Positions 24,434 through 44,920 of a DNA stretch of 64,000 bases are shown here, piece after piece (positions within the stretch are counted from its first letter, which is position 1; each line of letters opens with the position of its first letter). The DNA is from Escherichia coli (lineage in GTDB: Bacteria > Pseudomonadota > Gammaproteobacteria > Enterobacterales > Enterobacteriaceae): NCBI RefSeq assembly GCF_003790525.1, contig NZ_CP033635.1; one strand, written 5' to 3'. A program made the position numbers and the translations under genes. The notes beneath the pieces were generated by a model, which made no database searches, was not told where the DNA came from, and saw nothing but the letters and a program-made list of their open reading frames with translations.

Positions 24434-24764
24434 ATCAGCAGCAGAGCGCAAAGCCGCGCAGCGCGCTCGGCAGTCCGCCGCCGGTGAGCGCAAAATTGAA
24501 CTGGTGCTGGATAAGCAGGAGCAGGAAATGCTGGCGCGGAACTGCGCCGCCCGGCGCCCTGGTCACGATCCCTATGAAATGGCCGAGTACATCGCGCTGC
24601 TGATCCGCCAGGATGATGCACGTGTGCGCGGGCGTATAAAATCGATCAGTAGAAAACGTTGCGGTAAGTGCGGCGAGAGAGTTCCAGTTAATTCATGTCC
24701 GTGTAATGGTGACTCGCAATGCTGGGTGACTAAAGGCTGGCATGAAACGAAATTAATAGTGTGA
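24423..24764 (+). CDS. small zinc-ribbon protein immediately upstream of the late operon (candidate late regulator)
   Basis: C-terminal CGKCGERVPVNSCPCNGDSQC cluster; stop codon lies inside GTGACATGTCAC palindrome. Confidence 0.35.
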   Translation: MMAKSAAERKAAQRARQSAAGERKIELVLDKQEQEMLARNCAARRPGHDPYEMAEYIALLIRQDDARVRGRIKSISRKRCGKCGERVPVNSCPCNGDSQCWVTKGWHETKLIV

Positions 24765-24772
24765 CATGTCAC
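24761..24772. promoter_or_regulatory. 12-bp perfect palindrome GTGACATGTCAC (copy 1)
   Basis: Identical copy at 44886-44897. Confidence 0.4.
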
Positions 24773-24813
24773 GAGTAGATTATGCATGATGAATTTGATG
24801 GGTTTTGAATACT

Positions 24814-24839
24814 GCCGCCAACTATGGCGGCTTTATTTT
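24814..24839 (+). terminator. rho-independent terminator at end of early/replication region
   Basis: gccgcca acta tggcggc hairpin then tttatttt. Confidence 0.55.
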
Positions 24840-24850
24840 GCATGGTACTA

Positions 24851-24865
24851 TTACCACAACGGTAA
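24851..24865. promoter_or_regulatory. TTACC-N5-GGTAA operator-like site (perfect) upstream of terminase small subunit
   Basis: TTACC ACAAC GGTAA; degenerate second copy at 24869-24883. Confidence 0.5.
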
Positions 24866-24882
24866 CTATTACCACGGTGGTT

Positions 24883-25479
24883 ATGATGCCTGCTGAACCT
24901 AAAACCTATAAACGCAAATCAACGCAATTTAAGCCGCTCACAGCAATGCAGGAGGCTTATTGCCAGTCATACATCAAAACGCCTGAAAACCAGACTCAGG
25001 CAGCGATTAACGCAGGATTCTCCCCAAATACAGCGGCAGTTAAAGCCAGTGTCATGATGCGCGATGAACGCATTCAAAAACGGATTGCCGAGTTGATGGA
25101 GGAGCGCAACAAACGAATGCGCGTCAGTGCTGATTACGTTCTCATGCGCCTGGTGGAGATCGACCAGATGGACGTGATCGATATCCTCAACGACGATGGG
25201 AGCCTTAAACCAATCCGTGAGTGGCCGAAAATCTGGCGCACTACGCTTAGTGGCTTTGATCTGTCATCGACCATCATGAACATGAACGAGGATTCGATAG
25301 AGACAATCCTCAAAAAAATTAAATGGCCTGACAAGGTGAAGAACCTCGAACTGATTGGTAAGCACGTCGACGTTAACGCGTTCAAAGAACGTCTGGATGT
25401 TAATGTGAATGTGACAATTGCTGATCGCATAGCAGCAGCCAGGAAGCGACTCAAAGAACGTCAGGATGGTAATCAGTGA
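24883..25479 (+). CDS. terminase small subunit
   Basis: Start MMPAEPKTYKRKSTQFKPLTAMQEAYCQSYIKT...; directly precedes terminase large subunit. Confidence 0.6.
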   Translation: MMPAEPKTYKRKSTQFKPLTAMQEAYCQSYIKTPENQTQAAINAGFSPNTAAVKASVMMRDERIQKRIAELMEERNKRMRVSADYVLMRLVEIDQMDVIDILNDDGSLKPIREWPKIWRTTLSGFDLSSTIMNMNEDSIETILKKIKWPDKVKNLELIGKHVDVNAFKERLDVNVNVTIADRIAAARKRLKERQDGNQ

Positions 25480-26950
25480 CAGATACAGCGTTATCTCCTG
25501 AAGAGCAGTTGATCGAGGATATTGCAGGGTTCACTCACGATCCGCTTGGCTATGCCCTCTATGCGTTCCCGTGGGGGAAGAGGGTACTGAACTGGCACAT
25601 GCCACCGGCCCACGTCAGTGGCAGGCTGATGCGTTCCGAGAGATACGTGATCACCTGCAGAATCCAGAGACGCGCTATCAGCCGCTTATGCTGGCACGCG
25701 CTTCTGGTCACGGTATTGGTAAATCCGCATTCATCTCAATGCTGATCAACTGGGGCATGTCCACTTGCGAGGATTGTAAGGTCGTGGTGACCGCCAACAC
25801 CGACAACCAGCTACGAACTAAGACCTGGCCGGAAATTATCAAGTGGTCGAACCTTGCTATCACGAAAGACTGGTTTACCTGTACCGCTACCGCGATGTAC
25901 AGCAATGATCCTGGGCACGACAAGCGGTGGCGAGCTGACGCAATCCCTTGGTCTGAGCACAACACTGAGGCATTCGCCGGACTACACAACGAGCGTAAAC
26001 GCATCATCGTGGTATTTGATGAAGCGTCGAACATTGCGGATCTGGTGTGGGAAGTTGCCGAGGGTGCGCTAACGGACGAAGACACTGAGATTATCTGGGT
26101 GGCGTTCGGAAACCCTACACGTAACACCGGACGTTTCCGCGAATGTTTCCGCAAATATAAACACCGCTGGAAAACTGCGCAGATTGACAGCCGAACGGTG
26201 GAAGGCACTAACAAACAGCAGTTGCAGAAATGGGTTGATGACTACGGGGAAGACAGCGACTTCGTTAAAATCCGTGTGCGCGGCATATTCCCTGATGCAT
26301 CTGAATTGCAGTTTATCCCTACCGGTCTTACTGATGAGGCAATGAAACGGGTGGTGACCGCTGCGCAGGTGGCGCATGCTCCGGTGATAATCGGTGTTGA
26401 CCCGGCATATTCAGGCGTTGATGACGCGGTGATATACCTGCGGCAGGGGCTACACAGTAAGGTGCTGTGGACTGGCAACAAGACTACCGACGATCTGATT
26501 ATGGCGAAGCGTATCGCTGACTTTGAAGACCAGTATCAGGCTGACGCGGTGTTCATCGACTTCGGTTACGGAACCGGTTTGAAGTCAATCGGTGATGGCT
26601 GGGGACGTACATGGCAACTTGTTCCGTTCGGTGGCGCGTCTACTGACCCGCAGATGCTCAACAAGCGTGGGGAGATGTTCAACTCATGCAAGACATGGCT
26701 GAGGCTCGGCGGCATGCTGGATGACCAGGAAACTGCAGACGACCTGTCGGCGGCAGAGTACAAAGTTCGTGTGGACGGTAAAATCGTTATCGAACCGAAG
26801 GAAGATATCAAAGAGCGGCTTGGGCGTTCGCCTGGTAAAGGCGATGCGCTACTGCTGACGTTTGCTTTCCCGGTGTCAAAGCGCCTGCGACTTCCCGGGC
26901 AGCAGAACCAGCAAGGCAAGGCGCTTACCGAGTACGATCCATATGCTTAG
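25476..26950 (+). CDS. terminase large subunit; frame changes (-1) in a G5 run at 25573-25577, so either frameshifted or it starts at GTG 25571
   Basis: Walker A ASGHGIGKS in frame of 25571-26950; upstream 32 codons (GTG 25476, overlapping terS stop, SD AGGA) are in the other frame. Confidence 0.7.
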
Positions 26951-27765
26951 TCTTTATTTTTATCCTCGAAACCTGATAATCCAGATAGAACACCAAAGTT
27001 ATTAAAAACGTTTGGCTTACCAGATTTTAATCCGGATAAGTTGTGTTGCTCCAAAAAGTTACTAATTGTTTGGCCGTTGCCAAGTGCAAGGCTTTTTATT
27101 TGAGATTTTTCAGGGTATTTGAGTTTGTATTCGTCGAAATCATTTTGGAGGGTCTTATATGCCTCATTCATTCTTCCAAGAGTTTCCGATATCTCTTTTA
27201 ATGAATGATTTAGAGCTGCTAACTGAGCACTGGCGGATCTCAATTCGTCATCTTTAGCTTTCAACTCGGCAGTCAATTCACCCATACTATTCTTTGATCG
27301 AATAATCTCTTCTTTCATCTCTTGGATGTCTTTTTCCGCGCCAGTCTTAACTTTGTCGTATGTAACATCTTTTTTAGCCAATAACCTCTGCAGTCTTGTT
27401 TCACGCTGGATTTTTCTTGCCTTCAGGTGATTTTCGATTGAGTCATTATTATCAAGAGGCTTTGCTTGCCATACGTTAATGATATTGTTTACCCATGGTA
27501 ATAGGCAGCAGATAGCAATTACAGATAAGCATGGATAAAACATAACAGTTTTCCATGTGCTGTTATCTGAGATATATGAAATTTTATCTATTATGTTTGA
27601 TTTGCTAAAAAATAGATAAAGAATTGATTTCCAGTTGAAGGCGCACCAGGACATAACAAAAGCACCAAGCACAGGGTTTTTGGCTCGATTCACGGCAGTA
27701 TTGGCAGTAGATAAAAACAGCTCTTTGAACGATTCAAACATGCTAATTACCTTGAAGTTTTTCAT
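26947..27765 (-). CDS. membrane-anchored coiled-coil protein, antisense to the packaging/structural genes (candidate accessory or exclusion protein)
   Basis: Start MKNFKVISMFESFKE; two hydrophobic segments then long coiled-coil; AT-rich; own upstream palindromic motif. Confidence 0.5.
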   Translation of the reverse strand: MKNFKVISMFESFKELFLSTANTAVNRAKNPVLGAFVMSWCAFNWKSILYLFFSKSNIIDKISYISDNSTWKTVMFYPCLSVIAICCLLPWVNNIINVWQAKPLDNNDSIENHLKARKIQRETRLQRLLAKKDVTYDKVKTGAEKDIQEMKEEIIRSKNSMGELTAELKAKDDELRSASAQLAALNHSLKEISETLGRMNEAYKTLQNDFDEYKLKYPEKSQIKSLALGNGQTISNFLEQHNLSGLKSGKPNVFNNFGVLSGLSGFEDKNKD

Positions 27766-27769
27766 GATT

Positions 27770-27784
27770 ATACCTTTAAGGTAA
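27770..27784. promoter_or_regulatory. TTACC-N5-GGTAA-like site (ATACC TTTAA GGTAA) immediately upstream of minus-strand membrane protein gene
   Basis: Core palindrome TACCTTTAAGGTA. Confidence 0.45.
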
Positions 27785-27901
27785 TTTGCGGTCATCAAGC
27801 AAAAAAATGCCCGGCGAACCGGGCGAACTGGAAGCAATGAGTTATGCCTTCCGTGGCTGTACGGGTTTACAGCATGAAGTCATCGCAATGGCGTCCTGCT
27901 G

Positions 27902-27944
27902 TAAAAAGGGCGGTGATAGTCCTTCAAGGGAAACCATCACCGCC
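27902..27944 (-). terminator. rho-independent terminator downstream of tRNA-Arg
   Basis: ggcggtgat...atcaccgcc hairpin followed by T6 on minus strand. Confidence 0.55.
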
Positions 27945-27987
27945 AAGCCCCTGGAACTTCTGGCATCACGGTCCTTAGGCGTGATTC

Positions 27988-28064
27988 TGGCGCGGCATGC
28001 AGGATTCGAACCTGCGACCAACCGCTTAGAAGGCGGTTGCTCTGTCCAACTGAGCTAATGCCAC
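27988..28064 (-). tRNA. tRNA-Arg (anticodon UCU), phage-encoded
   Basis: 77-nt cloverleaf folded by hand: acceptor GUGGCAU/AUGCCGC, D-stem GCUC/GAGC, anticodon stem ACCGC/GCGGU with loop CUUCUAA, T-arm GCAGG-UUCGAAU-CCUGC, encoded CCA. Confidence 0.85.
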
Positions 28065-28386
28065 AACGCTGAGAGCACTTAGCCTGTTAAGGCACCACAC
28101 TTTGTCGCGGCTCCATAAATGCTCTCATCGTTGCACCCTCGTCTCTTCCGAGGTGTCACACCGAATCGCCGGGATGGTGAATCCCCGTGCGCGGAATAAA
28201 ACCGCTCGACTTGCACATTCCGGCTACCTGGTTCGTTTGCCCGAGCAAGGGAGGGTGCCCCTTAAACGTATCCAGACCGCTATCGGCGCATGTGCCATAC
28301 ACCGTACTGCTCAAAATAAAAGCTCACCCCACCTGTTCAATTTAACGACAAGCCAGTCAGGTTAATAACCGGAATGAACTCTTTGC

Positions 28387-28401
28387 TTACCTGAAAGGTA
28401 A
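28387..28401. promoter_or_regulatory. TTACC-N5-GGTAA operator-like site (perfect) upstream of portal operon
   Basis: TTACC TGAAA GGTAA. Confidence 0.5.
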
Positions 28402-28480
28402 TAATTAGTGCAGTATCTACGATAAATAAATCACATGTGGTTAAATTGGTAATAATTTAATTGCGTACGGAGTCATTGAT

Positions 28481-28687
28481 ATGTGCATGGGTAGCTCACC
28501 ATCAGTGCCTGCAACACCAGAAGTTCAGGCAGCACCACAGGAGCAGGATGCCGCCGTTGTTGATGCCCGCGACGAAGAAACTCGTCGCCGTCGCGCTGCT
28601 GCTGGTCGTAGTTCTACGCTGCTTACCGGTTCTCAGGGCGACACATCAACCGCTAATACCAGCGGTAAAACGCTGCTTGGTCAGTAA
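28481..28687 (+). CDS. small protein preceding portal gene (hypothetical)
   Basis: Same SD context (GGAGTCATTGA-ATG) as portal gene. Confidence 0.35.
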   Translation: MCMGSSPSVPATPEVQAAPQEQDAAVVDARDEETRRRRAAAGRSSTLLTGSQGDTSTANTSGKTLLGQ

Positions 28688-28701
28688 CCGGAGTCATTGA
28701 A

Positions 28702-30381
28702 ATGGCGGAAACAACTAAAGAGCGATTGAACAAACAGTTCGCACAACTTGAAAGCGAGCGTCAGTCGTTCGAGCCGCACTGGCGCGAGTTGAGTGATTAC
28801 ATCAACCCGCGTGGTTCCCGCTTTCTGACTTCTGAGGTCAACCGTAACGATCGACGCAATACACGCATTATTGATTCGACCGGGACTATGGCGGCGCGCA
28901 CTCTCGCCAGCGGCATGATGTCAGGCATCACAAGCCCCGCGCGTCCGTGGTTTCGCCTGGCTACGCCAGATCCTGAAATGATGGATTATGGCCCTGTTAA
29001 GTTGTGGCTTGAGGCGGTGCAGAACCGCATGAACGATATGTTCAATAAGTCGAATCTCTACCAGTCTCTTCCGCAGTTATACGGAAGCCTCGGCACATAC
29101 AGCACTGGTGCAATGGCGGTGCTGGAGGATGACGAGGACATCATTCGCACAATGCCATTCCCGATAGGCAGTTACTACCTGGCTAACTCACCTCGTGGCA
29201 GTGTGGACACCTGTTTTCGCAAGTTCTCTATGACTGTTCGTCAGCTTGTTCAGGAGTTCGGGCTAAATAACGTCAGCGAATCCGTAAAAAGCATGTGGGA
29301 AAGCGGCACCTACGAGAAGTGGATTGAAGTGATGCATTCGGTTTACCCGAACATTGACCGCGATACATCGAAGCTGGATAGCAAGAACAAGCCATTCAAA
29401 TCGGTTTATTACGAGGTTGGTGGCGATAACGACAAGTTGTTGCGTGAGTCCGGATTCGATGAGTTTCCAATTATGGCTCCGCGCTGGGAAGTTAACGGCG
29501 AAGATGTTTATGGATCATCATGCCCGGGTATGCTGGCGCTTGGACCTGTTAAGGCATTGCAGCTTCTCCAGAAGCGCAAGTCGCAGTTGATTGATAAAGC
29601 CACCAATCCGCCGATGGTTGCTCCGACTTCCCTCAAGAATCAGCGCGCCTCCCTTCTTCCTGGCGACATAACGTATATCGATCAGATTACTGGTCAGGAT
29701 GGTTTCAGGCCTGCTTATCTGGTTAACCCCAGTACAGCAGATCTGGTAGCAGACATTCAGGACACCCGCCAAATCATTAACAGCGCCTACTTTGTCGATC
29801 TGTTCATGATGTTGCAGAACATCAATACCCGCTCGATGCCTGTTGAAGCGGTGATCGAAATGAAAGAAGAAAAACTTCTGATGTTGGGGCCGGTTCTGGA
29901 GCGTCTGAACGACGAATGTCTTAATCCTCTCATTGACCGCGCTTTCTCGATGATGGTGCGTAAAAACATGCTGCCGCCACCGCCTGACGCGATGGAAGGT
30001 ATGCCCCTGAAGGTCGAATACATTTCTGTCATGGCTCAGGCGCAGAAGTCTATCGGCCTGTCCAGTCTGGCGTCTACGGTCAACTTCATTGGTCAACTTG
30101 CGCAAGCGAAACCAGAAGCTCTCGACAAACTCAATGTTGATCAGGCGATCGATGCATTCGCTGATATGTCCGGAGTGTCTCCAACCGTCATTGTTCCGCA
30201 GGAACAGGTTGAGCAGGCTCGCCAGCAACGGGCACAGCAGCAACAGCAGCAACAAATGATGGCGATGGGAATGGCGGCGGCACAGGGCGCCAAGACGCTA
30301 AGCGAAGCTAAAACTTCGGATCCGAGTGTTTTGTCAGCTATGGCGAATGCAGTTAGTGGTCAGGGTGGGCAATCACAATGA
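28702..30381 (+). CDS. portal protein
   Basis: 559 aa; position after terminase, before scaffold and capsid; size typical for portal. Confidence 0.65.
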   Translation: MAETTKERLNKQFAQLESERQSFEPHWRELSDYINPRGSRFLTSEVNRNDRRNTRIIDSTGTMAARTLASGMMSGITSPARPWFRLATPDPEMMDYGPVKLWLEAVQNRMNDMFNKSNLYQSLPQLYGSLGTYSTGAMAVLEDDEDIIRTMPFPIGSYYLANSPRGSVDTCFRKFSMTVRQLVQEFGLNNVSESVKSMWESGTYEKWIEVMHSVYPNIDRDTSKLDSKNKPFKSVYYEVGGDNDKLLRESGFDEFPIMAPRWEVNGEDVYGSSCPGMLALGPVKALQLLQKRKSQLIDKATNPPMVAPTSLKNQRASLLPGDITYIDQITGQDGFRPAYLVNPSTADLVADIQDTRQIINSAYFVDLFMMLQNINTRSMPVEAVIEMKEEKLLMLGPVLERLNDECLNPLIDRAFSMMVRKNMLPPPPDAMEGMPLKVEYISVMAQAQKSIGLSSLASTVNFIGQLAQAKPEALDKLNVDQAIDAFADMSGVSPTVIVPQEQVEQARQQRAQQQQQQQMMAMGMAAAQGAKTLSEAKTSDPSVLSAMANAVSGQGGQSQ

Positions 30382-30674
30382 CAGATTACGAAGATGATCA
30401 ACTGAAAGAAGAAAACGCCCGTAAGCAACGTGACATGGCACAGCGTGAAATTGATGACATTCGCTTTGTCATGAGCAGTGAACAGGGGCGTCGCGTTGTC
30501 TGGTCGGTGCTGGAGAAAGGCCGTGTGTTTTCCGCTATCTCACCGATGGACGCTATGGCAATGGCATTTAATGAGGGGCAACGCAATCTGGCGCTGGAAC
30601 TGTTTCAGCGCGTTATGGCGCATTGCCCTGAACAGTATTTGAAGATGGCCAAAGAGGCCAGTGAACAGGAGTGA
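30378..30674 (+). CDS. hypothetical head protein
   Basis: 98 aa, coupled to neighbours. Confidence 0.35.
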   Translation: MTDYEDDQLKEENARKQRDMAQREIDDIRFVMSSEQGRRVVWSVLEKGRVFSAISPMDAMAMAFNEGQRNLALELFQRVMAHCPEQYLKMAKEASEQE

Positions 30675-31372
30675 TCATGAATTTATTTGAGCGTTTGCTG
30701 TATCGCCGTCTTTGCAATGAGCAACCAGTCGATGGTGGAGCAGCTCCGGCTGCGTCAGAACCGTCAGCGCCTGCAGGTGATAACCCTGCTCCAGTTGGTG
30801 ATCCATCACAACCGGAAGGTGATAAGCCACAACCTGTTGCTGATGGCGATAAACCTGCTGATGACAAAAAGCCTGAAAACGATAAGCAGGATGAAAAAAA
30901 GGACGGCGATAAACCAGAGGGTGCGCCTGAGAAGTACGAGTTTCAGGCTGCCGAAGGCGTAGAGCTGGATACAGAAGCGTTGAAGGAATTCGAGCCGGTG
31001 GCGCGAGAACTAAACCTGACCAACGAGCAAGCGCAAAAGCTGGTTGATGCTTATCCGAAGATTCTGGCAGGTGTTCAGCAGCGCCAGGCAGAAGCCTGGC
31101 AGAAAACAACCGAGCAGTGGGCTACGGATGTAAAAGCTGACAAAGAAATCGGTGGCGACAAGTTGATTTCTAACCTTAGCGCCGCACAGCGTGCGCTTGA
31201 CCAGTTCGGGACACCTGAACTCAAAGAATATCTGAACACCACCGGGCTGGGTAATCACCCTGATCTGGTCAAAACGTTCGTGAAAATCGGAAAGGCGATG
31301 TCTGAAGATGGCATGGTCACCGGTGGTAATGAAGGCCAGCGTAGTGCGGCCGAAGTGCTCTATGGCAAATAA
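30671..31372 (+). CDS. putative scaffolding protein
   Basis: Acidic, Pro/Asp/Lys-rich low-complexity N-terminal half; precedes major capsid gene. Confidence 0.45.
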   Translation: MIMNLFERLLYRRLCNEQPVDGGAAPAASEPSAPAGDNPAPVGDPSQPEGDKPQPVADGDKPADDKKPENDKQDEKKDGDKPEGAPEKYEFQAAEGVELDTEALKEFEPVARELNLTNEQAQKLVDAYPKILAGVQQRQAEAWQKTTEQWATDVKADKEIGGDKLISNLSAAQRALDQFGTPELKEYLNTTGLGNHPDLVKTFVKIGKAMSEDGMVTGGNEGQRSAAEVLYGK

Positions 31373-31380
31373 GAGAGGAA

Positions 31381-32373: not shown

Positions 32374-32424
32374 CGCCTGTTATTAACCTGTGGGTCGTAA
32401 CAGACCCACTAATGGAGAAAGAAG

Positions 32425-32862: not shown

Positions 32863-32863
32863 G

Positions 32864-33208: not shown

Positions 33209-33252
33209 GCCTCGCGGATCAGACAAGGGGCTTCGGCCCCTTTATTGCAGGA

Positions 33253-33582
33253 GTGTATATGGAACTCGTAAACCTCAAAACCGGCACTGACAGCTACCAG
33301 GATGAGAGCGGAGAAACCAGAACTCGCGATGAATACCCGTGGGGGCTGTGCATCACTCTTAATAACGACACATTGAATAAGCTGAAGGCGCAACCTCAGG
33401 GCGTCGGAACAGAAGTGATGATAACTGCAAAGGCTGTTATTCGAGGCCTGTCTGCCAGAGAAACTGACGATGGTGTTAATCGCAGCGCCGATCTGCAGAT
33501 CACTGATATGGCGATCGCTCCTGTTTCCGGGGATGTAGAAAAATCAGCGGCTGAAACCCTGTACGGCAATGGGGGTGAGTAA
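33253..33582 (+). CDS. hypothetical virion protein
   Basis: 109 aa ORF in structural operon. Confidence 0.3.
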   Translation: MYMELVNLKTGTDSYQDESGETRTRDEYPWGLCITLNNDTLNKLKAQPQGVGTEVMITAKAVIRGLSARETDDGVNRSADLQITDMAIAPVSGDVEKSAAETLYGNGGE

Positions 33583-37122: not shown

Positions 37123-37667
37123 TGTGCGATCCGGTTATTGCTGGTGGCGCAATGCTCGCCATGAGTGGCATTCAGGCATACACCCAGTACCAACAGGGAA
37201 AGTATGCCTCGAAGGTTGCAGAAGCGAACGCAGATATAGCCACTGCTCAGGCAAATGATGCAATAAACATAGGTAACGCTGAAGCTGAGCAACGGCGCAG
37301 AGAGACCCGACAGCGGCTTGGTACACAGGCGGCGACAATGGGGGCTACCGGCGCTGATTTATCTACAGGTAACGCGCTGGATATATTTGGCGACACTGCT
37401 CAGTTTGGCGCTCTTGATGCGCTGACGACGGTGAATAACGCGCAACGCGAGGCTTACGGTTATCAGATGCAGGCTGCTAACTATAAAGCAGAAGCCAGTT
37501 CAGCCCGTAAACAGGGGAATGTGGGAGCAGCAACAACATTGCTCACTGCGCCTCTGAAGGCATACGGTGCGTACCAGATGTTTGGTGGGACGTGGAGTCC
37601 GTTTACTCAAAGCACTCCTGCGCCAATCGGGGCAGCAGCAGGAACCAGATTACCCGGAGGATTATAA
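37122..37667 (+). CDS. hypothetical virion protein (Ala/Gln-rich)
   Basis: 181 aa; TAATG overlap with next gene. Confidence 0.3.
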   Translation: MCDPVIAGGAMLAMSGIQAYTQYQQGKYASKVAEANADIATAQANDAINIGNAEAEQRRRETRQRLGTQAATMGATGADLSTGNALDIFGDTAQFGALDALTTVNNAQREAYGYQMQAANYKAEASSARKQGNVGAATTLLTAPLKAYGAYQMFGGTWSPFTQSTPAPIGAAAGTRLPGGL

Positions 37668-40180
37668 TGCCAGTCGTACCAACAGTATCCGGACGTCAGG
37701 TTGAGAGCCGTGGAGTTCAGTCAGCAGGCTTGCAGACGTTTTCTCAGCCAGGTATTGGTGATGCTTTTGTTCTGGCAGGGGAAGAGGCAATTGATGTTTT
37801 TGGGCAGGCAAAACAGCGTGCCAATATTGCCTTGGCTCAGGAGGCATCTCTTAACCTCAGTCAGATAAGCAGTGATTTGCTGAATAATCCTGAAACAGGA
37901 TTGCTTAACCTGAAAGGGAAAAATGCTATTGGAAAAGGCCATGAGTATACGCAGCAGTTTGATGCTCAGGTCGAACAATTGGCTATGTCGCTGCCGGATG
38001 AACAGGCTCGTAATGCTTTCATGCAGCAGGCGCAGCAGCAGCGCATTCAGTTCACTACGCAGGCCGGGCGGCACGAGATAGGGCAAATAAATGCCTACGA
38101 AGAAGGCCAGTTTCAGGCGACGCTGCTGAACAATGGTAAAAATGCCGCAGCATTGTATGGCGACAACGCCGCATACGTATTGGCTAATAAGCAAACTTTC
38201 CAGCAAATTGAGGATTACGGCATTGCGCATGGCTGGAGCGACGAGCAAATCCAGGCCAAGAAAATCGAGTTTAAAGAGAAGGTTGCTGATGCCGCATTGT
38301 CCCAGTGGTCGGCAAACAATGCGACCGCATTCATCCAAAGTAATGGCGAGTTAAGTGATACTGCTGCTGGAGCTCGCCGTGCTGTAGCAGATAGTGACTC
38401 TTCCGAGCGTGCCCGTGGCATACGCAACAATAACCCAGGAAATCTCGAATACAGCAAAACTAATCCGTGGGTAGGCCAGACCGGTGATGATGGTCGATTT
38501 GCTAAATTCGAAACACCTGAACACGGGATTCGTGCATTAGGGCGGAACCTGATGTCGTATCAGAGGCAGGGTATTGATACCGTCAGCGAGATAATTAATC
38601 GCTGGGCACCGCCTACTGATAAAAATGACACTATGTCGTATATCAAAGCAGTGTGCGAACAACTTGGCGTTTCTGCTGATGAGCCTCTCGATGCATCTAA
38701 TCCTGATACCCTGAAGGCGCTTTGTGCAGCCATTATCCATCATGAGAACGGTAGCCAGCCATACAGTGATCAGCAGTTAACTGCTGGTGTCAGTGCAGCA
38801 CTTGGTTTATCAACAATTCCAACCAACATCAAACGCTATACCGGTAATGCAGCATTCGATGCGGCATCTCCTGAGGCGCAGGCAAGTTTTATGCGACAGG
38901 CGGATCAACTGCGTCGGCAGCAGCAGGCTGAATATAAAACGATGATTGACAGCCAGGTTCGCGATGCGACAGCTGCGTATATGCGTGGCGTTGAATTTCC
39001 TAACCCACCTGGTGAGGCTGATTTTATTGCAGCTTATGGAGTCAGAGAAGGAAACCTGCGATATACCGAGTTCAGAAATGCGCAAATCGCCGGACAGTAT
39101 ATAGGCTCTTTCCGCAACATGCCGACAAGCAGCATTACATCATATGTTGAGCAATTACGCCCGGATACTGGTGAGACAGGGGAGGGTTATGCGGCACGAG
39201 CCGCTCTTTATGACAACGTTGTGTCGGCTGCAAGTCAGGTGATAAAGCAGCGACAGGCTGATCCTGTACAGTTCTCTCTTGCCGCCGGACAGGCAAAGCC
39301 TATCGACATGAGCAATAAGGATAACTTTGGACAGAGCGTTGCCTTGCGTGCCGCTCAGGTCAGTGACCTTGCTAAGTCATATGGCACTCCACTGACGTTC
39401 TTTTCCAAAGACGAGGCCAATCAGATCGGTGTTTTCTTTCGTGATGCGCCCGTTTCCCAACAGGCAGCATATCTCGATACCATCAGGCAGAGCACTGGTG
39501 GTGGGCAGGTGTATATGTCAGCACTACAGCAGATCAGTGCCAACGCTCCATCTGCTGCCGTTGCCGGGATACTGATGGATAAGCCAGGTGGTATTTTGGC
39601 AGAAAAAAACTGGTTTAATCCGGATGTTTCCGTGTCTCCTGAAACCGCTGCGCAGACAATTCTTGCTGGCGCGGCGGCTCGTAAAGGTACTGATGACGCG
39701 AAAGGTATTCCGATGCCTAAAGATGCTGATCTTCGCCTTGAGTTTTCTGACATGGTGAAGGATGCATTTGCTGGTGATGCTCAGGGGGCATCAATGGCAT
39801 ACGAGATCGCAAAGGACTATTACGCTGGTGTGATGGCGAAAAAAGGCGTGGTATCAGGCGAAATTGACAATGATATCTGGAAACAGGCTGTTAACGTAGC
39901 TACAGGTGGCGTGCATGACTATAACGGAATGGGGAATGTTCTTTTGCCGTGGGGAATGTCTGCAGAGCAATTCGATAAGCAGGTTAATCAGGCTTGGAAT
40001 GAACAAGTTGTTGGCACAGGGATAAAAACACCGCCTGGTCAGTATGGTTTGCAAAGTTACGGCGATAGTCAGTACCTGGTGAAACTTGGTACTGGTTATC
40101 TGCTAAAAGATGATGGTTCTCCCGTTGTTCTTGATCTGACACAGAAGCGTCAGAGATTCTCCGGAGATATTCCGAAATGA
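37667..40180 (+). CDS. internal virion/ejection protein
   Basis: Start MPVVPTVSGRQ with SD GGAGGATTATA; 837 aa. Confidence 0.4.
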   Translation: MPVVPTVSGRQVESRGVQSAGLQTFSQPGIGDAFVLAGEEAIDVFGQAKQRANIALAQEASLNLSQISSDLLNNPETGLLNLKGKNAIGKGHEYTQQFDAQVEQLAMSLPDEQARNAFMQQAQQQRIQFTTQAGRHEIGQINAYEEGQFQATLLNNGKNAAALYGDNAAYVLANKQTFQQIEDYGIAHGWSDEQIQAKKIEFKEKVADAALSQWSANNATAFIQSNGELSDTAAGARRAVADSDSSERARGIRNNNPGNLEYSKTNPWVGQTGDDGRFAKFETPEHGIRALGRNLMSYQRQGIDTVSEIINRWAPPTDKNDTMSYIKAVCEQLGVSADEPLDASNPDTLKALCAAIIHHENGSQPYSDQQLTAGVSAALGLSTIPTNIKRYTGNAAFDAASPEAQASFMRQADQLRRQQQAEYKTMIDSQVRDATAAYMRGVEFPNPPGEADFIAAYGVREGNLRYTEFRNAQIAGQYIGSFRNMPTSSITSYVEQLRPDTGETGEGYAARAALYDNVVSAASQVIKQRQADPVQFSLAAGQAKPIDMSNKDNFGQSVALRAAQVSDLAKSYGTPLTFFSKDEANQIGVFFRDAPVSQQAAYLDTIRQSTGGGQVYMSALQQISANAPSAAVAGILMDKPGGILAEKNWFNPDVSVSPETAAQTILAGAAARKGTDDAKGIPMPKDADLRLEFSDMVKDAFAGDAQGASMAYEIAKDYYAGVMAKKGVVSGEIDNDIWKQAVNVATGGVHDYNGMGNVLLPWGMSAEQFDKQVNQAWNEQVVGTGIKTPPGQYGLQSYGDSQYLVKLGTGYLLKDDGSPVVLDLTQKRQRFSGDIPK

Positions 40181-41979
40181 GTTACTTTGGCCTTAATCCA
40201 GTAAACCAGAATCAGCAGCTTGACGAAGCAGCATCAAATCCAGTTGGCTTTAACAGCGATGTTGGTTTTTTCGACAATGCTGTAGGAGCGGCATTGTCTG
40301 GTTTGTACTCCGGGCTGGTGGCAAAGCCTGATCAGTTGCTCTGGGCAGGGATGGATAAAATCGTATCCCCGATTGCTCAGTTTGTTAACGAAAACACCTC
40401 GCTCAATGACACTTCAGTTTCATACATTGCCGAGCAGAGAAAACTAGCAGAGCAGCAGGTTAAGCGGCTGACGCCTGATGCCGCGACAACCGGAACCGCC
40501 GGGCAGGTTCTTTATGGGTTGTTCGATATGGGCGGGCAGGCTGTTATCGGTACAACGCTCGGTGGTCCGGTCGGAGGTGCTGCGGCGGTAACTTCGCTAC
40601 AGGGTTTTTCTGAGTTTGAACGGCTGACAGCACAGGGTGTTGATTTCAGGACGGCGCAGGAAGCGGGATTAGTGCAGGGTATTACTGCTGGTGCCGGAAC
40701 ACTGATCCCTATGAGCCTCGGGTTACGTGCTGGTGGTGCGCTGGCGGAAGGTGTGGCGGCTCAGCTTGCGCGGACGGGTGAAAGTTCAGTGCGACGCGCC
40801 GCAGCAACAGCAGTACGTGCAACGCCAGATATTGCCTATGCCGCAGGTACAAATATTGCGTTCGGTATGGCACAGCGTGGGCTTACTGCAAAAACGCTTC
40901 GTGATGGTGGCTATAGCGAAATGGCTAACCAGTATGATGTGTTGGATCGACAGGCAATTGCTATTGATGCTGTTCTTGGGGTGGCGTTTGGTGGTGTCGG
41001 CAGATTTATTAACTCTCGCGGCGAGTCTACAAGCGCACCAAATTTTTCACCAGTTGATATCGATGCTGCACTGGCGGCGAATGCCGCTCATCATGCTGAA
41101 ATTGATATTGCTCCCGGTGTGCCGATCAACGTGCTTTCGCGTAATTCGCACATTCAGGCTCTGCGAAAAGCCATGTCTGATGTTAGCCAGGGGAGACCTG
41201 TAGACGTTGCCAGCATTGTTGAGTCTGCATCTTTCAGTGAAATTCCTGGGCGCAAGAGTCTGCTTTCTCAGGCAGTTAATGAGGCTCTGTCATCTGTAGA
41301 TGATGGAGTAACGGCGCGCGCTATAGAAAATCGGTTGCTTGAAGAACAGGCCGCGCAGCTTTTGCCGCGTGGCGATAGACAGGTTTACCAGTCTGAAATC
41401 GCTAATAGCCAACGAATTATTGAAAATCTCACTGAACAGCGCGCACAAATTCTTGCAGAAGAGCCAACCGGTAGCGGTAAAGCTTTGTCTCGTGCTCGAT
41501 CAGATAAACAGGCCAGACTTCGCGATATTGATCAACGAATCCGGCAGGCACAAGAACGCCTGGAGTTTTCCCGTAACGCGTTGGCTCCGCACGAGCCTGG
41601 CGGTCAGTTTTTTGAAGCTCGAGCAGAACTGGCACGACGACAGCAGGCAGAAAGTGAACTTAATGCTCAGGCTGTTTCATTCTATAAAACAGCAGAGGTC
41701 AGGACGCCAGACGAAGTAGCTCCTTTTGAGCCCGGTAAGATATTGCAACAGACAGAACAAAAAATGATGGCAGATCCGGCAGGAGATATTGATCTGCGTA
41801 TAGCTGAAGACTCGCTGCTTGAATCTCCGGACATGATAATCACCGTGCTGGATGATGATGGTAATCCACAATCGCGCAGTGCGCGTGAAGTACTGGATGA
41901 AGCGAACAGGGAAAGTGAGCAGGCAATACAGGATTCCAGCCTGTTTGATGTTGCTGTGGCGTGTTTCTTGAGAGGTTAA
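40177..41979 (+). CDS. internal virion/ejection protein
   Basis: 600 aa, Ala/Gly-rich N-terminal half. Confidence 0.35.
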   Translation: MSYFGLNPVNQNQQLDEAASNPVGFNSDVGFFDNAVGAALSGLYSGLVAKPDQLLWAGMDKIVSPIAQFVNENTSLNDTSVSYIAEQRKLAEQQVKRLTPDAATTGTAGQVLYGLFDMGGQAVIGTTLGGPVGGAAAVTSLQGFSEFERLTAQGVDFRTAQEAGLVQGITAGAGTLIPMSLGLRAGGALAEGVAAQLARTGESSVRRAAATAVRATPDIAYAAGTNIAFGMAQRGLTAKTLRDGGYSEMANQYDVLDRQAIAIDAVLGVAFGGVGRFINSRGESTSAPNFSPVDIDAALAANAAHHAEIDIAPGVPINVLSRNSHIQALRKAMSDVSQGRPVDVASIVESASFSEIPGRKSLLSQAVNEALSSVDDGVTARAIENRLLEEQAAQLLPRGDRQVYQSEIANSQRIIENLTEQRAQILAEEPTGSGKALSRARSDKQARLRDIDQRIRQAQERLEFSRNALAPHEPGGQFFEARAELARRQQAESELNAQAVSFYKTAEVRTPDEVAPFEPGKILQQTEQKMMADPAGDIDLRIAEDSLLESPDMIITVLDDDGNPQSRSAREVLDEANRESEQAIQDSSLFDVAVACFLRG

Positions 41980-41984
41980 ATTAA

Positions 41985-44459
41985 ATGAGACAGGAATGTA
42001 TACAAGCGGTCCAGCAGGCGGCGCAGCGCACGTTAACGGCGCGAGAAATACAGAACATTGAAGACCGCATTTATCGAAATATGCGCTCCATTGCTCGTGA
42101 TGACCCGATGTCGTGGCGACAACTTTCCGAATCAGAACGGTTGTATCGTGCAGCACAATTGGCATCTGAAGAATTACAGCGAGAAGCGGCATTAAAGAAA
42201 CGTCGTGTGGCCCTCACTATAGCCGCACGTCAGAGATTGGATAAATTTATCAATAGCTATCAAGGGGCTGATGGGAAACTTGGCGCTCTTAACCGTACTA
42301 TTGCTTTTAATGCAGACGGTAAATCGAATTTCCTCTCTGTTGAATCCAGAACAAAAGCCACCCGTGATTATGCATTGAGTCAATTGCAGGAGGCATTCGA
42401 AGCAGTTGATCCTCGCTTTTTTGGTCTGTTTGAAGATGAAGCGGGCGTACGTGACCTGGTATATGAAATGCGGGGGCAAAATACTGGCAATGCTAAAGCA
42501 AGAAAAGGTGCTAAGGCGTGGAGAGAAGTTACAGAGCTGCTGCGCCGCCGGTTTAATGATGCTGGTGGGGACATTGGCTATCTCGAAAACTGGGGGATCC
42601 CTCAACATCATTCTATGGAAAAGGTTGGGGCGGTATCAAAGGATAAGTGGGTTAGCGATGTTATAGGTAAGCTGGATCGCAAATATTATACCCGAGCCGA
42701 TGGACAACTGATGAACGATGCCGAGTTGTCTGAATTTCTTGGAGAGGCTTATAACACGATCGCTACTGGTGGGCTGAATAAGCTTACTGATACCGGAATG
42801 CGAATTTCCGGCGCACGTGCTAACCGTGGTAATGCATCACGACAGATACATTTCAAAGATGCAGATTCCTATCTGCAATATCAGCAACTTTATGGCGATC
42901 GCTCTCTATGGGAAATCATGGTCGGTCACCTGGAAGGTATCAGTAAAGATATTGCGCTGGTGGAAACATATGGCCCAAACCCCGATCATGTTTTCCGCTC
43001 CCTTCTTGATCAGGTTAAGGCAGAAACGGCAACAGCTAACCCGAGTAAAACCGGTAGCGTCGAGCGTCTGGCGAACAAAACAGAGAACTTGTACAACTTT
43101 ATTTCCGGAAAAACACAGCCTGTAGCGAATCCGCACATCGCGCGATGGTCTGACAATATCCGCAACTGGCTGGTTGCCAGCAGACTCGGATCCGCGTTGC
43201 TGTCATCGTTCTCTGATCTTGGAACCATGTATCTGTCTGCGAAGGTTACCAACCTTCCAATGAACCAGTTATTTCGCAACCAGCTTGAAGCTATGGACCC
43301 AACGAACCGTACAGAACTTGCGCGGGCGCGCCGCGCTGGCCTGGCGATGGAATCTCTACTTGGCAGCGTTAACCGCTGGGCGATGGATAATATGGGGCCG
43401 TCTGTGTCTCGTTGGGCGGCAACGGCGGTAATGCGTGCCAGTGGGCTTACAGCATGGTCAGATGCGCACAAGCGCGCCTATGGCGTAACCATGATGGGAA
43501 GCCTGGGAGAAGTAGTGTCACGGACACCAGACCTTCGTAGCCTCGATGACTCTGATTTTCGTATCCTGAAAAGCAAAGGGATTACTGACACAGACTGGAG
43601 CGTATGGAAGCTGGCGCAACAGGAGGACTGGGGGAACGGTAATAATACGATGCTGACACCGGAAAGCATTATGCGTATCCCTGATTCAGCAGTTAAACAT
43701 CTTGGTGAGCCTGAACGCGTGAAATTTGAGGCAATGCGTAAACTGCTCGGTGCCGTAACTGAAGAAGTTGATATGGCTGTTATTACACCGGGCGCACGTG
43801 AACAGATGTTCGTAGGGTCTGGTCTTCAGCGTGGAACATGGAAAGGTGAATTAACGAGAAGTGTTTTCCTGTTTAAATCGTTCCCTATCTCGGTAGTTAT
43901 GCGTCACTGGCATAGAGCTATGGGGATGCCGTCTGCTGGTGGGCGTGCGGCATATATAGCAACGTTTTTAGCAAGCACAACCATGCTTGGTGCTCTTTCC
44001 ATGCAGATTACTGATCTTATTAATGGGAGAAATCCAAAAGAAATGACCGGTGACAACATGGTTAAATTCTGGATAAATGCATTTTTAAAAGGTGGTGGGG
44101 CAGGGTTGTATGGTGATTTTCTTTTCTCTGACCACACCAGGTACGGGAGCGGCGCACTAGCGTCGATGCTTGGCCCGGTAGCTGGTCTGGTTGATGACGT
44201 AGTGAAGATTGCTCAGGGCATACCGTTAAATGCTGTGGAAGGGAAGAATGAGCAGACTGGTGGTGATCTGGTTAAGCTTGGGAAAGGTTTGATGCCTGGT
44301 GCGAATCTCTGGTACTTGAAGGCGGCTCTCGATCACATGATCTTTAATCAGATGCAGGAGTATTTTTCACCAGGCTATTTGCGTAAAATGGAGCAACGTT
44401 CGAAGAAAGAGTTTAACCAGACATACTGGTGGCGACCTCAGGATGTCACTCCGCAATAA
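41985..44459 (+). CDS. large internal virion/ejection protein
   Basis: 824 aa, last gene of core structural block. Confidence 0.4.
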   Translation: MRQECIQAVQQAAQRTLTAREIQNIEDRIYRNMRSIARDDPMSWRQLSESERLYRAAQLASEELQREAALKKRRVALTIAARQRLDKFINSYQGADGKLGALNRTIAFNADGKSNFLSVESRTKATRDYALSQLQEAFEAVDPRFFGLFEDEAGVRDLVYEMRGQNTGNAKARKGAKAWREVTELLRRRFNDAGGDIGYLENWGIPQHHSMEKVGAVSKDKWVSDVIGKLDRKYYTRADGQLMNDAELSEFLGEAYNTIATGGLNKLTDTGMRISGARANRGNASRQIHFKDADSYLQYQQLYGDRSLWEIMVGHLEGISKDIALVETYGPNPDHVFRSLLDQVKAETATANPSKTGSVERLANKTENLYNFISGKTQPVANPHIARWSDNIRNWLVASRLGSALLSSFSDLGTMYLSAKVTNLPMNQLFRNQLEAMDPTNRTELARARRAGLAMESLLGSVNRWAMDNMGPSVSRWAATAVMRASGLTAWSDAHKRAYGVTMMGSLGEVVSRTPDLRSLDDSDFRILKSKGITDTDWSVWKLAQQEDWGNGNNTMLTPESIMRIPDSAVKHLGEPERVKFEAMRKLLGAVTEEVDMAVITPGAREQMFVGSGLQRGTWKGELTRSVFLFKSFPISVVMRHWHRAMGMPSAGGRAAYIATFLASTTMLGALSMQITDLINGRNPKEMTGDNMVKFWINAFLKGGGAGLYGDFLFSDHTRYGSGALASMLGPVAGLVDDVVKIAQGIPLNAVEGKNEQTGGDLVKLGKGLMPGANLWYLKAALDHMIFNQMQEYFSPGYLRKMEQRSKKEFNQTYWWRPQDVTPQ

Positions 44460-44468
44460 GGAACAACA

Positions 44469-44882
44469 ATGAAGGAATTATTGCTGTTATCGGTATTTTT
44501 GATATCCGCTTGCTCGACATCCTATGATGTTTATGACGGTGTTGATAAGGCATATTGCGACAAAGTTAAAATGGATTTTTCTCTTGCCAAGACGGCGAAG
44601 GATAGTTGTATTGATCACTACGTCAAGACTTATACCAAGCCAGCCTCATCGGCATCTGATATTGCTGAAGGTGCTGTGTTTGAGTGTAACAAGGTGATAT
44701 CCATCGCAGCGAGTTCTTCATACGATGCTGCTGTATGTGCAATGGCTGAAAGAAACGGCATGTCAGTGCAAAAAATTAATAGCATGATAAGCAGTAATGA
44801 CGAAGCCAAAATAAGAACTGATATCAGCTCGGTGAAAAAAGATGCCATGAACAGAGTTGTAAAATATCAGTCATCTTTATAA
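44469..44882 (+). CDS. lipoprotein (candidate superinfection-exclusion/cargo)
   Basis: Signal peptide with lipobox LISAC; low GC; followed by terminator. Confidence 0.5.
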   Translation: MKELLLLSVFLISACSTSYDVYDGVDKAYCDKVKMDFSLAKTAKDSCIDHYVKTYTKPASSASDIAEGAVFECNKVISIAASSSYDAAVCAMAERNGMSVQKINSMISSNDEAKIRTDISSVKKDAMNRVVKYQSSL

Positions 44883-44885
44883 GTC

Positions 44886-44897
44886 GTGACATGTCAC
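44886..44897. promoter_or_regulatory. 12-bp perfect palindrome GTGACATGTCAC (copy 2)
   Basis: Identical to 24761-24772; followed by hairpin aggccgc tttc gcggcct plus T-run. Confidence 0.4.
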
Positions 44898-44920
44898 AGG
44901 CCGCTTTCGCGGCCTTGTTT

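What the first reader, a model, noticed from the sequence alone, without database searches (positions are those of the whole stretch)
24761..44897. Identical 12-bp palindrome GTGACATGTCAC at both ends of the late/structural block
One copy overlaps the stop codon of the zinc-ribbon gene just upstream of the terminator and terminase small subunit. The other follows the lipoprotein gene at the far end of the virion module. Two exact copies of a 12-mer in 40 kb are unexpected by chance. The zinc-ribbon protein (24423-24764) sits where a late-gene regulator would be in lambdoid phages and could bind it.
Basis: partly seen in the sequence, partly recalled or inferred. Interest (0 to 1): 0.45.

Follow-up and report, generated by a model that had tools for sequence, protein, structure and literature searches.

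The report
Conserved phage operator paired with regulator
The two identical 12-base palindromes are real and conserved: the motif travels through many unrelated temperate phages with one small, uncharacterised DNA-binding protein and is most likely that protein's binding site, placed at the ends of transcription units; what the pair does is still unknown.

Summary
GTGACATGTCAC occurs exactly twice in the window: at 24761, overlapping the stop codon of the zinc-ribbon gene, and at 44886, 3 nt after the lipoprotein gene and abutting an intrinsic terminator.

The window alone is weak evidence, because about 6% of random windows contain a repeated 12-bp palindrome. Comparison settles it.
- The window holds an epsilon15/phiV10-like (Uetakevirus) prophage.
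- All six relatives fetched keep the 12-mer at the equivalent places while the flanks diverge.
- 77 of 80 metagenomic relatives have it on the stop codon.

The generalised motif Y-GTGAC-NN-GTCAC-R also accompanies distant homologues (30-68% identity) of the protein. These are in N15, a P2-like Yersinia phage, Pectobacterium ZF40 and Vibrio-type prophages. Each has 1-3 copies against 0.01-0.05 expected. In six lineages the motif overlaps the gene's own TGA stop.

The protein models as a ribbon-helix-helix dimer. Its C-terminal half is zinc-binding and weakly TraR/DksA-like. The half-sites equal those of MatP's matS, but the spacer is 1 bp shorter.

Pairing of protein and site is well supported. 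A late-activator role is not, because in relatives two of the three copies lie between convergent gene ends. My best guess is a boundary or roadblock operator at transcription-unit ends. This is an undescribed variant of a known kind.

The parts
24426..24764 (+). Gene for the 112-aa ribbon-helix-helix plus zinc-ribbon protein (epsilon15 gp49 / phiV10 p55 / N15 gp46 family; PHROG 536). It is the last gene of the early-right operon.
24761..24772 (.). Palindrome copy A, GTGACATGTCAC (14-bp form T...G, 24760-24773), overlapping the last codon and TGA stop of the gene above.
   Evidence: The same arrangement is found in 77 of 80 IMG/VR relatives and in epsilon15, SPN1S, PAS61 and TL-2011b. The generalised motif overlaps the stop codon in N15, the Yersinia phage, L093, L094 and L096.
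24814..24839 (+). Intrinsic terminator (GCCGCC-aact-a-GGCGGC plus T-run) closing the early-right unit, about 40 nt after copy A.
   Evidence: It is annotated as a terminator at the same place in epsilon15.
24851..24865 (.). Repressor-type operator TTACCACAACGGTAA upstream of terS. This is a separate regulatory element, not part of the palindrome system.
   Evidence: 10 copies in the prophage against 0.05 expected. The same motif is annotated as a repressor site at epsilon15 12-27.
24886..25479 (+). Terminase small subunit gene, the first gene of the packaging unit.
   Evidence: PHROG 51, E 8e-58; synteny with phiV10 and TL-2011b.
30430..30441 (.). One-mismatch copy GTGACATGGCAC inside the portal gene, probably not functional.
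   Evidence: It is conserved only with the coding sequence in the E. coli relatives and absent in epsilon15 and SPN1S. The count at one mismatch or fewer is not above chance.
44469..44882 (+). Variable cargo gene (lipoprotein, PHROG 8691) inserted between the last virion gene and copy C.
   Evidence: Relatives carry different genes here, and homology resumes at the palindrome.
44886..44897 (.). Palindrome copy C, GTGACATGTCAC (14-bp form C...A, 44885-44898), at the end of the virion operon.
   Evidence: It is present at the equivalent place in all six fetched Uetakevirus genomes, with divergent flanks.
44898..44922 (+). Intrinsic terminator (AGGCCGC-tttc-GCGGCCT plus T-run) abutting copy C. 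Convergent minus-strand cargo and the antirepressor operon lie beyond it.
   Evidence: -16.5 kcal/mol, z -3.4; annotated as a terminator in phiV10 and epsilon15.

Best explanation
The palindrome is the cognate DNA operator (full form Y-GTGAC-NN-GTCAC-R) of the small protein encoded at 24426-24764. That protein is a ribbon-helix-helix dimer with a C-terminal zinc-binding domain.

Gene and site form one inherited module, with one copy of the site built into the gene's own stop codon. Further copies mark the ends of transcription units. In this prophage these are the end of the early-right operon (copy A) and the end of the virion operon (copy C), each next to an intrinsic terminator. Relatives have a third copy (B) between terL and a convergent cargo gene.

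Inferred mechanism: the protein is made late in the early-right transcript. It binds these sites and acts as a boundary element, that is, a roadblock or termination aid. This would stop transcription leaking from one unit into the next, or antisense into the packaging and virion genes. Binding at its own 3' end would also limit its own synthesis.

Shown: conservation, co-inheritance of gene and site, and site anatomy. Inferred: direct binding. Speculative: the roadblock or insulator action.
For: Conservation in relatives:
- The exact 12-mer sits at equivalent positions in phiV10, TL-2011b, PAS61, epsilon15, SPN1S and Tyrion, although the flanks are unrelated.
- It lies on the stop codon in 77 of 80 IMG/VR loci.

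Co-inheritance with distant homologues:
- GTGAC-NN-GTCAC occurs 1-3 times per genome or contig (expected 0.01-0.05) next to homologues in ZF40, the Yersinia P2-like phage, N15, Vibrio K308 and contigs L091-L094, L096 and L097.
- It is absent from lambda, P2 and P22, which lack the gene, and from the host flanks.

Signs of a protein-read DNA site:
- Flanks are Y at -1 and R at +1 in 64 of 64 cases, although this was never searched for.
- The arms are invariant while the central NN varies. That is the pattern of a protein-read DNA site, not an RNA stem. The RNA hairpin is only -1.2 kcal/mol.

The protein:
- A beta ribbon appears in the linked-dimer model.
- RHH Pfam hits are sub-threshold.

Positions:
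- Copies B and C lie in convergent 3'-3' gaps, 1-5 nt from terminator hairpins.
- Late units have their own repressor operators, so read-through is not needed for late expression.
- Homology breakpoints fall at the gene start and just after the site, so the pair behaves as a module.
Against: No binding experiment exists, so the pairing is inferred from co-occurrence only.

Outside Uetakeviruses the extra copies are not consistently at terminators. Some are intragenic (ZF40 5125 and 7622, N15 33237, L091 2401, L097). Others lie 9-31 nt upstream of start codons (N15 gene 47, and terS in the Vibrio-type phages). No single positional rule has been proven.

A roadblock on its own stop codon would truncate its own mRNA, which is an awkward design.

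One close relative (L058) has the gene but no site within 4 kb on either side. This window and TL-2011b lack copy B, so copies are dispensable.

Confidence: 0.55

Rival explanations
1. The protein is the late-gene activator or antiterminator. Bound at the palindrome, it switches on, or lets early transcription read through into, the packaging and virion genes, in a Q/QBE-like or Ogr-like way.
For: - The gene is the last one of the early-right operon, directly before terS here and directly before the lysis/terminase cluster in the Vibrio-type phages.
- Copy A is followed by a terminator and then terS, which resembles PR'-tR'.
- Vibrio-type relatives have a copy 11-31 nt upstream of terS and one between the gene and the holin.
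- In L094 and L096 a near-consensus -35 with a poor -10 follows the site (my reading of the sequences).
- The C-terminal half is weakly similar to the RNA-polymerase-binding protein TraR.
Against: - Copies B and C sit between convergent gene ends.
- At B the plus-strand hairpin precedes the site.
- N15 (Q-like gene 40) and the P2-like Yersinia phage (Ogr-sized regulator) already have late regulators.
- Every late unit here has its own repressor-type operator.
- The distance from the site to start codons or promoters varies from 9 to about 290 nt.
- No convincing promoter lies between copy A and its terminator (one search gives only a 9-of-12 match).
Confidence: 0.15
2. This is a phage analogue of MatP/matS. 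The protein is architectural. Dimers bound at the 2-3 dispersed sites bridge or compact the phage chromosome, or position it in the cell, rather than control transcription.
For: - The half-sites GTGAC/GTCAC are identical to those of matS, GTGACRNYGTCAC (PMC6907758).
- There are 2-3 dispersed copies per genome, some intragenic as matS sites can be.
- The family is seen in phages of Enterobacterales, Vibrio and Aeromonas, clades that to my knowledge possess MatP.
- Several carriers are plasmid-like prophages: N15, and ParA-encoding Vibrio-type elements.
Against: - There is no detectable sequence homology to MatP (hhalign probability 0.5%; no PF06303 or PF17414 hit).
- The spacer is 2 nt, not 3, and no 13-bp matS-type site occurs in the window.
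- Some complete genomes have a single exact site (the Yersinia phage), which cannot bridge.
- MatP's coiled-coil tetramerisation domain is absent and a zinc knuckle stands in its place.
Confidence: 0.13
3. This is a module-junction or recombination signal. The palindrome, with its terminator, would be a conserved landing pad at which cargo genes are exchanged, or a target of a recombinase or nuclease. Its link to the protein gene would then be only physical.
For: - Homology with relatives breaks at or next to the palindrome at all three positions.
- At least four unrelated sequences follow copy A, at least five different cargo genes abut copy B, and several abut copy C.
Against: - Any conserved functional element flanked by exchangeable DNA gives the same pattern.
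- 12 bp is too short for ordinary homologous exchange.
- Intragenic copies in ZF40, N15 and L097 are not at junctions.
- The strict Y/R flank rule and invariant half-sites across phages from Vibrio to E. coli point to protein recognition.
Confidence: 0.07
4. This is an RNA-level element: a small hairpin in 3' or 5' untranslated regions that affects mRNA stability, processing or translation.
For: The copies lie in transcribed, mostly untranslated positions, either just before terminator hairpins or 9-31 nt before start codons.
Against: - The hairpin is only 4 bp and -1.2 kcal/mol, no better than shuffles.
- The arms never co-vary. They are invariant in sequence while the 'loop' centre varies.
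- The site is palindromic and is used in both orientations relative to transcription.
- Some copies are intragenic.
Confidence: 0.04
5. The repeat arose by chance and has no function.
For: About 6% of random 64-kb windows contain a repeated perfect 12-bp palindrome.
Against: Conservation at equivalent sites in all relatives, co-occurrence with the protein family in 11 of 12 lineages at 20- to 200-fold over expectation, and the 64-of-64 flank rule.
Confidence: 0.01

Closest known systems
MatP / matS of E. coli (Ter macrodomain organiser)
   Same: The site is a palindrome with the same 5-bp half-sites, GTGAC...GTCAC (PMC6907758). It is bound by a dimer whose DNA-binding core is a ribbon-helix-helix. 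The MatP-matS structure is the second-best structural match of the model. Both have a few dispersed copies per replicon.
   Different: The spacer is 2 nt, giving a 12-bp core, against 3 nt (13 bp) in matS. No sequence homology is detectable. MatP's N-terminal four-helix bundle and C-terminal coiled coil are missing, and a zinc knuckle is present instead. The protein is phage-encoded, and one site is embedded in the gene's own stop codon.
Phage and plasmid ribbon-helix-helix repressors with palindromic operators (P22 Arc/Mnt, CopG, ParD/TacA-type antitoxins)
   Different: Those operators lie in the promoter of the regulated, usually own, operon. Here the site lies at the 3' end of the gene and at unit ends. 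The extra C-terminal Cys-rich domain is unusual. No RHH Pfam family reaches threshold.
TraR / DksA C4 zinc-finger family (secondary-channel binders of RNA polymerase; F TraR, E. coli YbiI, P2 Orf82)
   Same: Residues about 46-102 align with TraR (hhalign probability 84%, E 7.5e-6; PDB profile hits at E 0.006-0.01). The layout is a long helix, then C-x2-C-G-x2-(I/L)-P, then a late Cys. The family's near-invariant Y49 and E53 align with TraR's invariant Y9 and E13. Such genes are common in the early regions of temperate phages; P2 Orf82 is one example.
   Different: There is no Pfam PF01258 match at all. The cysteine spacing differs: C78-x2-C81-x9-C91-x-C93-x4-C98 against C-x2-C-x17-C-x2-C. The helix that would enter the channel is here packed into the RHH-like fold. 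TraR and DksA have no DNA-binding domain and no DNA site.
Lambda Q with its QBE, PR' and tR'
   Same: The regulator gene is last in the early-right operon. A DNA site is followed by a nearby intrinsic terminator ahead of the late genes.
   Different: There is no homology to Q families. No promoter has been demonstrated at copy A. The other copies lie between convergent gene ends. N15 carries both a Q-like gene and this module.

Membership tests
MatP/matS system | 13-bp site GTGACRNYGTCAC with a 3-nt spacer | tested here: not met
   All 32 sites have a 2-nt spacer. No GTGAC-N3-GTCAC occurs in the window. One stray copy each occurs in K308 and L093.
MatP/matS system | Protein with the MatP domains (Pfam PF06303 and PF17414), or detectable homology to MatP | tested here: not met
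Ribbon-helix-helix (RHH) DNA-binding superfamily | N-terminal beta strand that pairs with its partner in a dimer, followed by two helices | tested here: met
   The linked-dimer AF2 model turns residues 21-27 of both copies into strands, followed by H29-41 and H51-74 (pLDDT 84-91 there). This is a model, not a structure, and strand pairing between the two copies was not inspected.
Ribbon-helix-helix (RHH) DNA-binding superfamily | Significant sequence or structure match to known RHH families | tested here: inconclusive
Ribbon-helix-helix (RHH) DNA-binding superfamily | Sequence-specific binding to a dyad or repeat operator | not testable with these tools
   This is inferred from co-inheritance of gene and motif. 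EMSA or footprinting is needed.
DksA/TraR C4 zinc-finger family (PF01258) | Pfam PF01258 match and the C-x2-C-x17-C-x2-C finger | tested here: not met
   There is no PF01258 hit in any of the 85 members. The cysteine spacing differs.
DksA/TraR C4 zinc-finger family (PF01258) | Remote homology of the helix-plus-finger module | tested here: inconclusive
   hhalign gives probability 84% against a TraR alignment and 78% against YbiI. Profile search of PDB sequences gives E 0.006-0.01.
DksA/TraR C4 zinc-finger family (PF01258) | Binding in the RNA polymerase secondary channel | not testable with these tools
   This needs pull-down, cross-linking or cryo-EM.
Lambdoid Q-type late antiterminators | Q-family protein with a binding element embedded in a late promoter, followed by a terminator | tested here: not met
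   No Q-family Pfam, PHROG or NCBIfam match was found. Only a weak 9-of-12 promoter-like match lies at copy A. Copies B and C lie between convergent gene ends.
Intrinsic (rho-independent) terminator | Stable GC-rich hairpin followed by a U-run | tested here: not met
   The palindrome itself folds at only -1.2 kcal/mol. The true terminators are the adjacent hairpins at 24814-24839 and 44898-44922.

The most novel reading that the evidence does not exclude
The protein is a DNA-tethered member of the TraR/DksA class. Its ribbon-helix-helix half parks it on Y-GTGAC-NN-GTCAC-R sites at operon borders. Its TraR-like helix and zinc-finger half engages RNA polymerase as it arrives. Pausing, termination or read-through would then be set site by site. 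This would be a site-specific secondary-channel factor, a mode of transcription control not described so far, and it is widespread in temperate phages of enterobacteria and vibrios.
Probability: 0.1. Interest if true: 0.85.

Novelty: new variant of a known kind. Interest (0 to 1): 0.55.

Why it matters
Epsilon15-like phages lack any recognised N- or Q-type regulator, and how their transcription units are separated and timed is unknown.

This finding supplies a concrete, testable pair. One 112-aa protein and one 14-bp site are conserved from E. coli podoviruses to N15, P2-like phages and Vibrio prophages.

If binding is confirmed, three things follow:
- A protein family currently labelled only 'hypothetical' or 'transcriptional regulator' (PHROG 536) gains a function.
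- The mosaic breakpoints beside cargo genes are explained.
- A compact orthogonal protein-operator pair becomes available whose half-sites are those of matS, with one base less in the spacer. That is useful for asking how RHH proteins measure spacing.

If the TraR-like half really contacts RNA polymerase, the pair would be a new way of coupling a DNA address to secondary-channel regulation.

Tried and rejected
- **Literature.** Full-text search for GTGACATGTCAC found no paper. Searches on epsilon15/phiV10 terminators, N15 gp46 and phage Tyrion gave nothing relevant. The epsilon15 genome paper could not be fetched under the id I guessed.
- **Family libraries.** Pfam, NCBIfam and PADLOC scans of the protein gave nothing.
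- **MatP homology.** Not supported by hhalign.
- **Dimer fold search.** A Foldseek search with the artificial linked dimer gave only noise.
- **RNA hairpin.** Rejected. The fold is weak, and the arms are invariant rather than co-varying.
- **cos/pac site.** The Tyrion record is opened exactly at the palindrome centre and the phiV10 record just after the TGA. In Vibrio-type phages one copy lies between the HNH and terS genes. Against this, there are three copies per genome, the terminase is annotated as headful-type (Sf6/P1 PacB-like), and the other records are opened elsewhere. I could not resolve this and rate it low.
- **Degenerate extra sites.** None above chance in the window.
- **Restriction or methylation site.** Considered from memory only (GTSAC is the Tsp45I site). 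Nothing supports it.


Full report
**Observation**

GTGACATGTCAC occurs exactly twice in the 64-kb window, at 24761-24772 and 44886-44897. A single one-mismatch copy lies inside the portal gene at 30430.

Copy A overlaps the last codon and the TGA stop of the ORF 24426-24764. A GC hairpin with a T-run at 24814-24839 follows, and then terS. Copy C starts 3 nt after the TAA stop of a lipoprotein-like ORF (44469-44882). It ends 1 nt before a strong hairpin with a T-run at 44898-44922. The description is therefore accurate.

The window has 16 perfect 12-bp palindromes. In 3000 first-order Markov random windows, 191 (about 6%) contained a repeated one. The window alone would not establish a feature.

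**What the window is**

Bases from about 12.5 to 52 kb are an epsilon15/phiV10-like (Uetakevirus) prophage. The integrase gene (12572-13822) follows directly on a 525-aa ORF (10802-12379). I take that ORF to be guaA, because phage ZX5 integrates at the guaA 3' end (PMC9782041).

The gene at 24426-24764 corresponds to phiV10 p55 and epsilon15 gp49. It is annotated 'transcriptional regulator', with a note of similarity to N15 gp46.

**Conservation in close relatives**

I fetched phiV10, TL-2011b, PAS61, epsilon15, SPN1S and Tyrion. The identical 12-mer is present at up to three equivalent places, although the flanking DNA is divergent or unrelated.
- **Copy A** lies on the stop codon of the gp49-like gene. 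In phiV10 and Tyrion the linear record is simply opened inside it.
- **Copy B** lies between terL and a convergent minus-strand cargo gene. It is present in five of the six and lost in this window and in TL-2011b. Here a different cargo gene and a tRNA-Arg occupy the spot.
- **Copy C** lies after the last gene of the virion operon and is present in all.

Among 80 IMG/VR loci encoding homologues at 80% identity or more, 77 carry the 12-mer on the stop codon. Of those, 54 have copy B about 2.2-2.8 kb downstream. The three exceptions are a truncated locus, a 60-bp deletion, and one gene with a TAG stop and no site nearby.

The anatomy of B and C is constant: stop codon of a variable cargo gene, a few nt, the palindrome, 1-5 nt, a GC hairpin, then a T-run. 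Homology with relatives breaks at the start of the gp49-like gene and immediately after copy A. At least four unrelated sequences follow 'GTGACATGTCACGA' there. Homology also breaks at copies B and C.

**Co-inheritance with the protein in distant phages**

This is the decisive result. tblastn found homologues at 30-68% identity in quite different phages. An exhaustive profile search found a small family, 227 representatives among 1.84 billion. I read eleven further lineages:

| Lineage | Sites found |
|---|---|
| Pectobacterium myovirus ZF40 | TGTGACATGTCACA 2 nt after the stop, plus two more copies |
| P2-like Yersinia phage | GTGACGCGTCAC overlapping the TGA stop |
| N15 | GTGACTGGTCAC overlapping the stop of gene 46, plus two more |
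| Vibrio K308, contigs L091 and L092 | three copies each of GTGAC(G/A)CGTCAC |
| L093 and L096 | GTGACATGTCAC on the stop |
| L094 | GTGACTGGTCAC on the stop, plus one more |
| L097 | two copies |
| L095 (5.2 kb only) | none |

Expectation for GTGAC-NN-GTCAC is 0.01-0.05 per sequence. Lambda, P2 and P22 have neither the gene nor the motif, and the host flanks of the window have none.

One rule was not part of any search pattern. All 32 sites have a pyrimidine immediately 5' and a purine immediately 3', which is 64 of 64 flanks. The motif is therefore a 14-bp dyad, Y-GTGAC-NN-GTCAC-R.

The half-sites never change while the central dinucleotide does (AT, GC, AC, TG/CA, CG, TT). That is the signature of a DNA site read by a dimeric protein, not of an RNA stem. 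As RNA the element is a 4-bp hairpin of -1.2 kcal/mol, no better than shuffles.

**The protein**

It has no Pfam, NCBIfam or PADLOC match and belongs to PHROG 536.

An AF2 model from an 85-sequence alignment is confident (pLDDT 94.8). It shows a basic helix 4-17, a coil 18-28, helices 29-41 and 51-73, a Cys-rich knuckle at 77-98 and a helix 99-107.

The C-terminal half aligns weakly with the TraR/DksA zinc-finger family. The PDB profile search gives E 0.006-0.01 for YbiI and TraR, and hhalign gives 84% against a TraR alignment. The family's near-invariant Y49 and E53 fall on TraR's invariant Y9 and E13. Pfam PF01258 is not matched and the cysteine spacing differs, so I treat this as a lead only.

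**Relation to matS**

The half-sites are those of E. coli matS, GTGACRNYGTCAC (PMC6907758), and MatP's DNA-binding core is also an RHH. However, the spacer here is one base shorter, no 13-bp version occurs in the window, and hhalign finds no homology to MatP. The system works like MatP/matS in its mode of recognition, but it is not a member of that family.

**What it does**

Direct binding is inferred, and function is open.

The late-activator idea fits the gene's position, which is last in the early-right operon and just before terS or the lysis cluster. It also fits copies upstream of terS in the Vibrio-type phages. It fits poorly with the following:
- Copies B and C lie in convergent 3'-3' gaps.
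- N15 and the P2-like phage already have their own late regulators.
- The repressor-type operator TTACC-N5-GGTAA occurs 10 times in this prophage against 0.05 expected. One copy lies just upstream of each of terS (24851), the portal operon (28387), the antirepressor operon (46856) and the tailspike (47236) (the same motif is annotated in epsilon15). Late units thus appear to have their own repressor-controlled promoters.

Across lineages the sites are found at unit ends next to terminators, in short stop-to-RBS gaps inside operons, and sometimes inside genes. That spread fits a position-independent barrier better than a promoter element.

I therefore favour a boundary or roadblock operator. 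The protein, made at the end of the early-right transcript, sits on sites at unit borders. There it limits read-through and antisense transcription into the packaging and virion genes. The copy on its own stop codon gives tight genetic linkage and possibly self-limitation.

I put about 0.75 on 'the site is bound by this protein' and about one third on the boundary mechanism in particular. An architectural, MatP-like bridging role and the activator or antiterminator role remain live rivals.

**Novelty**

I found no description of the motif or of the pairing. The richly annotated epsilon15 record lists repressor, IHF, integrase and RNase III sites but not this one.

The kind of feature, an RHH protein with a dyad operator, is known. 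Several aspects are new variations: the family itself, the zinc and possibly TraR-like fusion, the operator embedded in the gene's own stop codon, the matS-like half-sites with a shortened spacer, and the placement at terminators.

Noticed in passing
window 17537, 17599, 18311, 20598, 20660, 24851, 28387, 45816, 46856, 47236: TTACC-N5-GGTAA occurs 10 times in the prophage against 0.05 expected by chance. It is the motif annotated as the repressor site in the epsilon15 record. Copies sit at the immunity region and also just upstream of terS, the portal operon, the antirepressor operon and the tailspike, so the prophage repressor may control every unit directly.
   Followed up: partly
window 46638-46724 (-), 46743-46819 (-), 45903-46742 (-): Rfam finds a C4 antisense RNA and an isrK RNA directly upstream of, and overlapping the start of, an Ant-like antirepressor gene. 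This is a P1 immI / N15-type antirepressor control cassette. It is transcribed towards palindrome copy C. In N15 one copy of the motif lies about 25 nt upstream of what looks like the promoter of the equivalent operon.
   Followed up: partly
window 26947-28064: Where relatives carry palindrome copy B and a small cargo gene, this prophage has a 296-aa minus-strand ORF (PHROG 4780, function unknown) and a tRNA-Arg(tct) gene at 27988-28064 (-). Copy B is absent.
   Followed up: partly
L006 (Tyrion) record ends; L001 (phiV10) record ends: The Tyrion GenBank record is opened exactly at the centre of palindrome copy A (…GTGACA | TGTCAC…). The phiV10 record is opened right after the TGA, and its copy A reads GTGACATGTTAC. 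I could not tell whether this reflects a measured genome end or a convention.
   Followed up: no
L089 about 33240-33330; L091 about 10560-10620; L093 about 6845-6900: Vibrio-type relatives have a long inverted repeat of the form ACCACAAAAAGTG...CACTTTTTGTGGT between the homologue gene and the holin gene. It lies downstream of the GTGAC-NN-GTCAC site and may be another regulator's operator or an RNA structure.
   Followed up: no
window 65-7684 (+): A 2539-aa ORF in a GC-richer (55-56%) stretch of host DNA lies upstream of the guaA-like gene. I did not examine it.
   Followed up: no
L099 (phage P2) 27548-27772: P2 Orf82 is annotated as a DksA-like C4 zinc-finger protein in the early operon. TraR/DksA-like small proteins thus recur in the early regions of temperate phages, which bears on the weak TraR-like signal in the protein studied here.
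   Followed up: no
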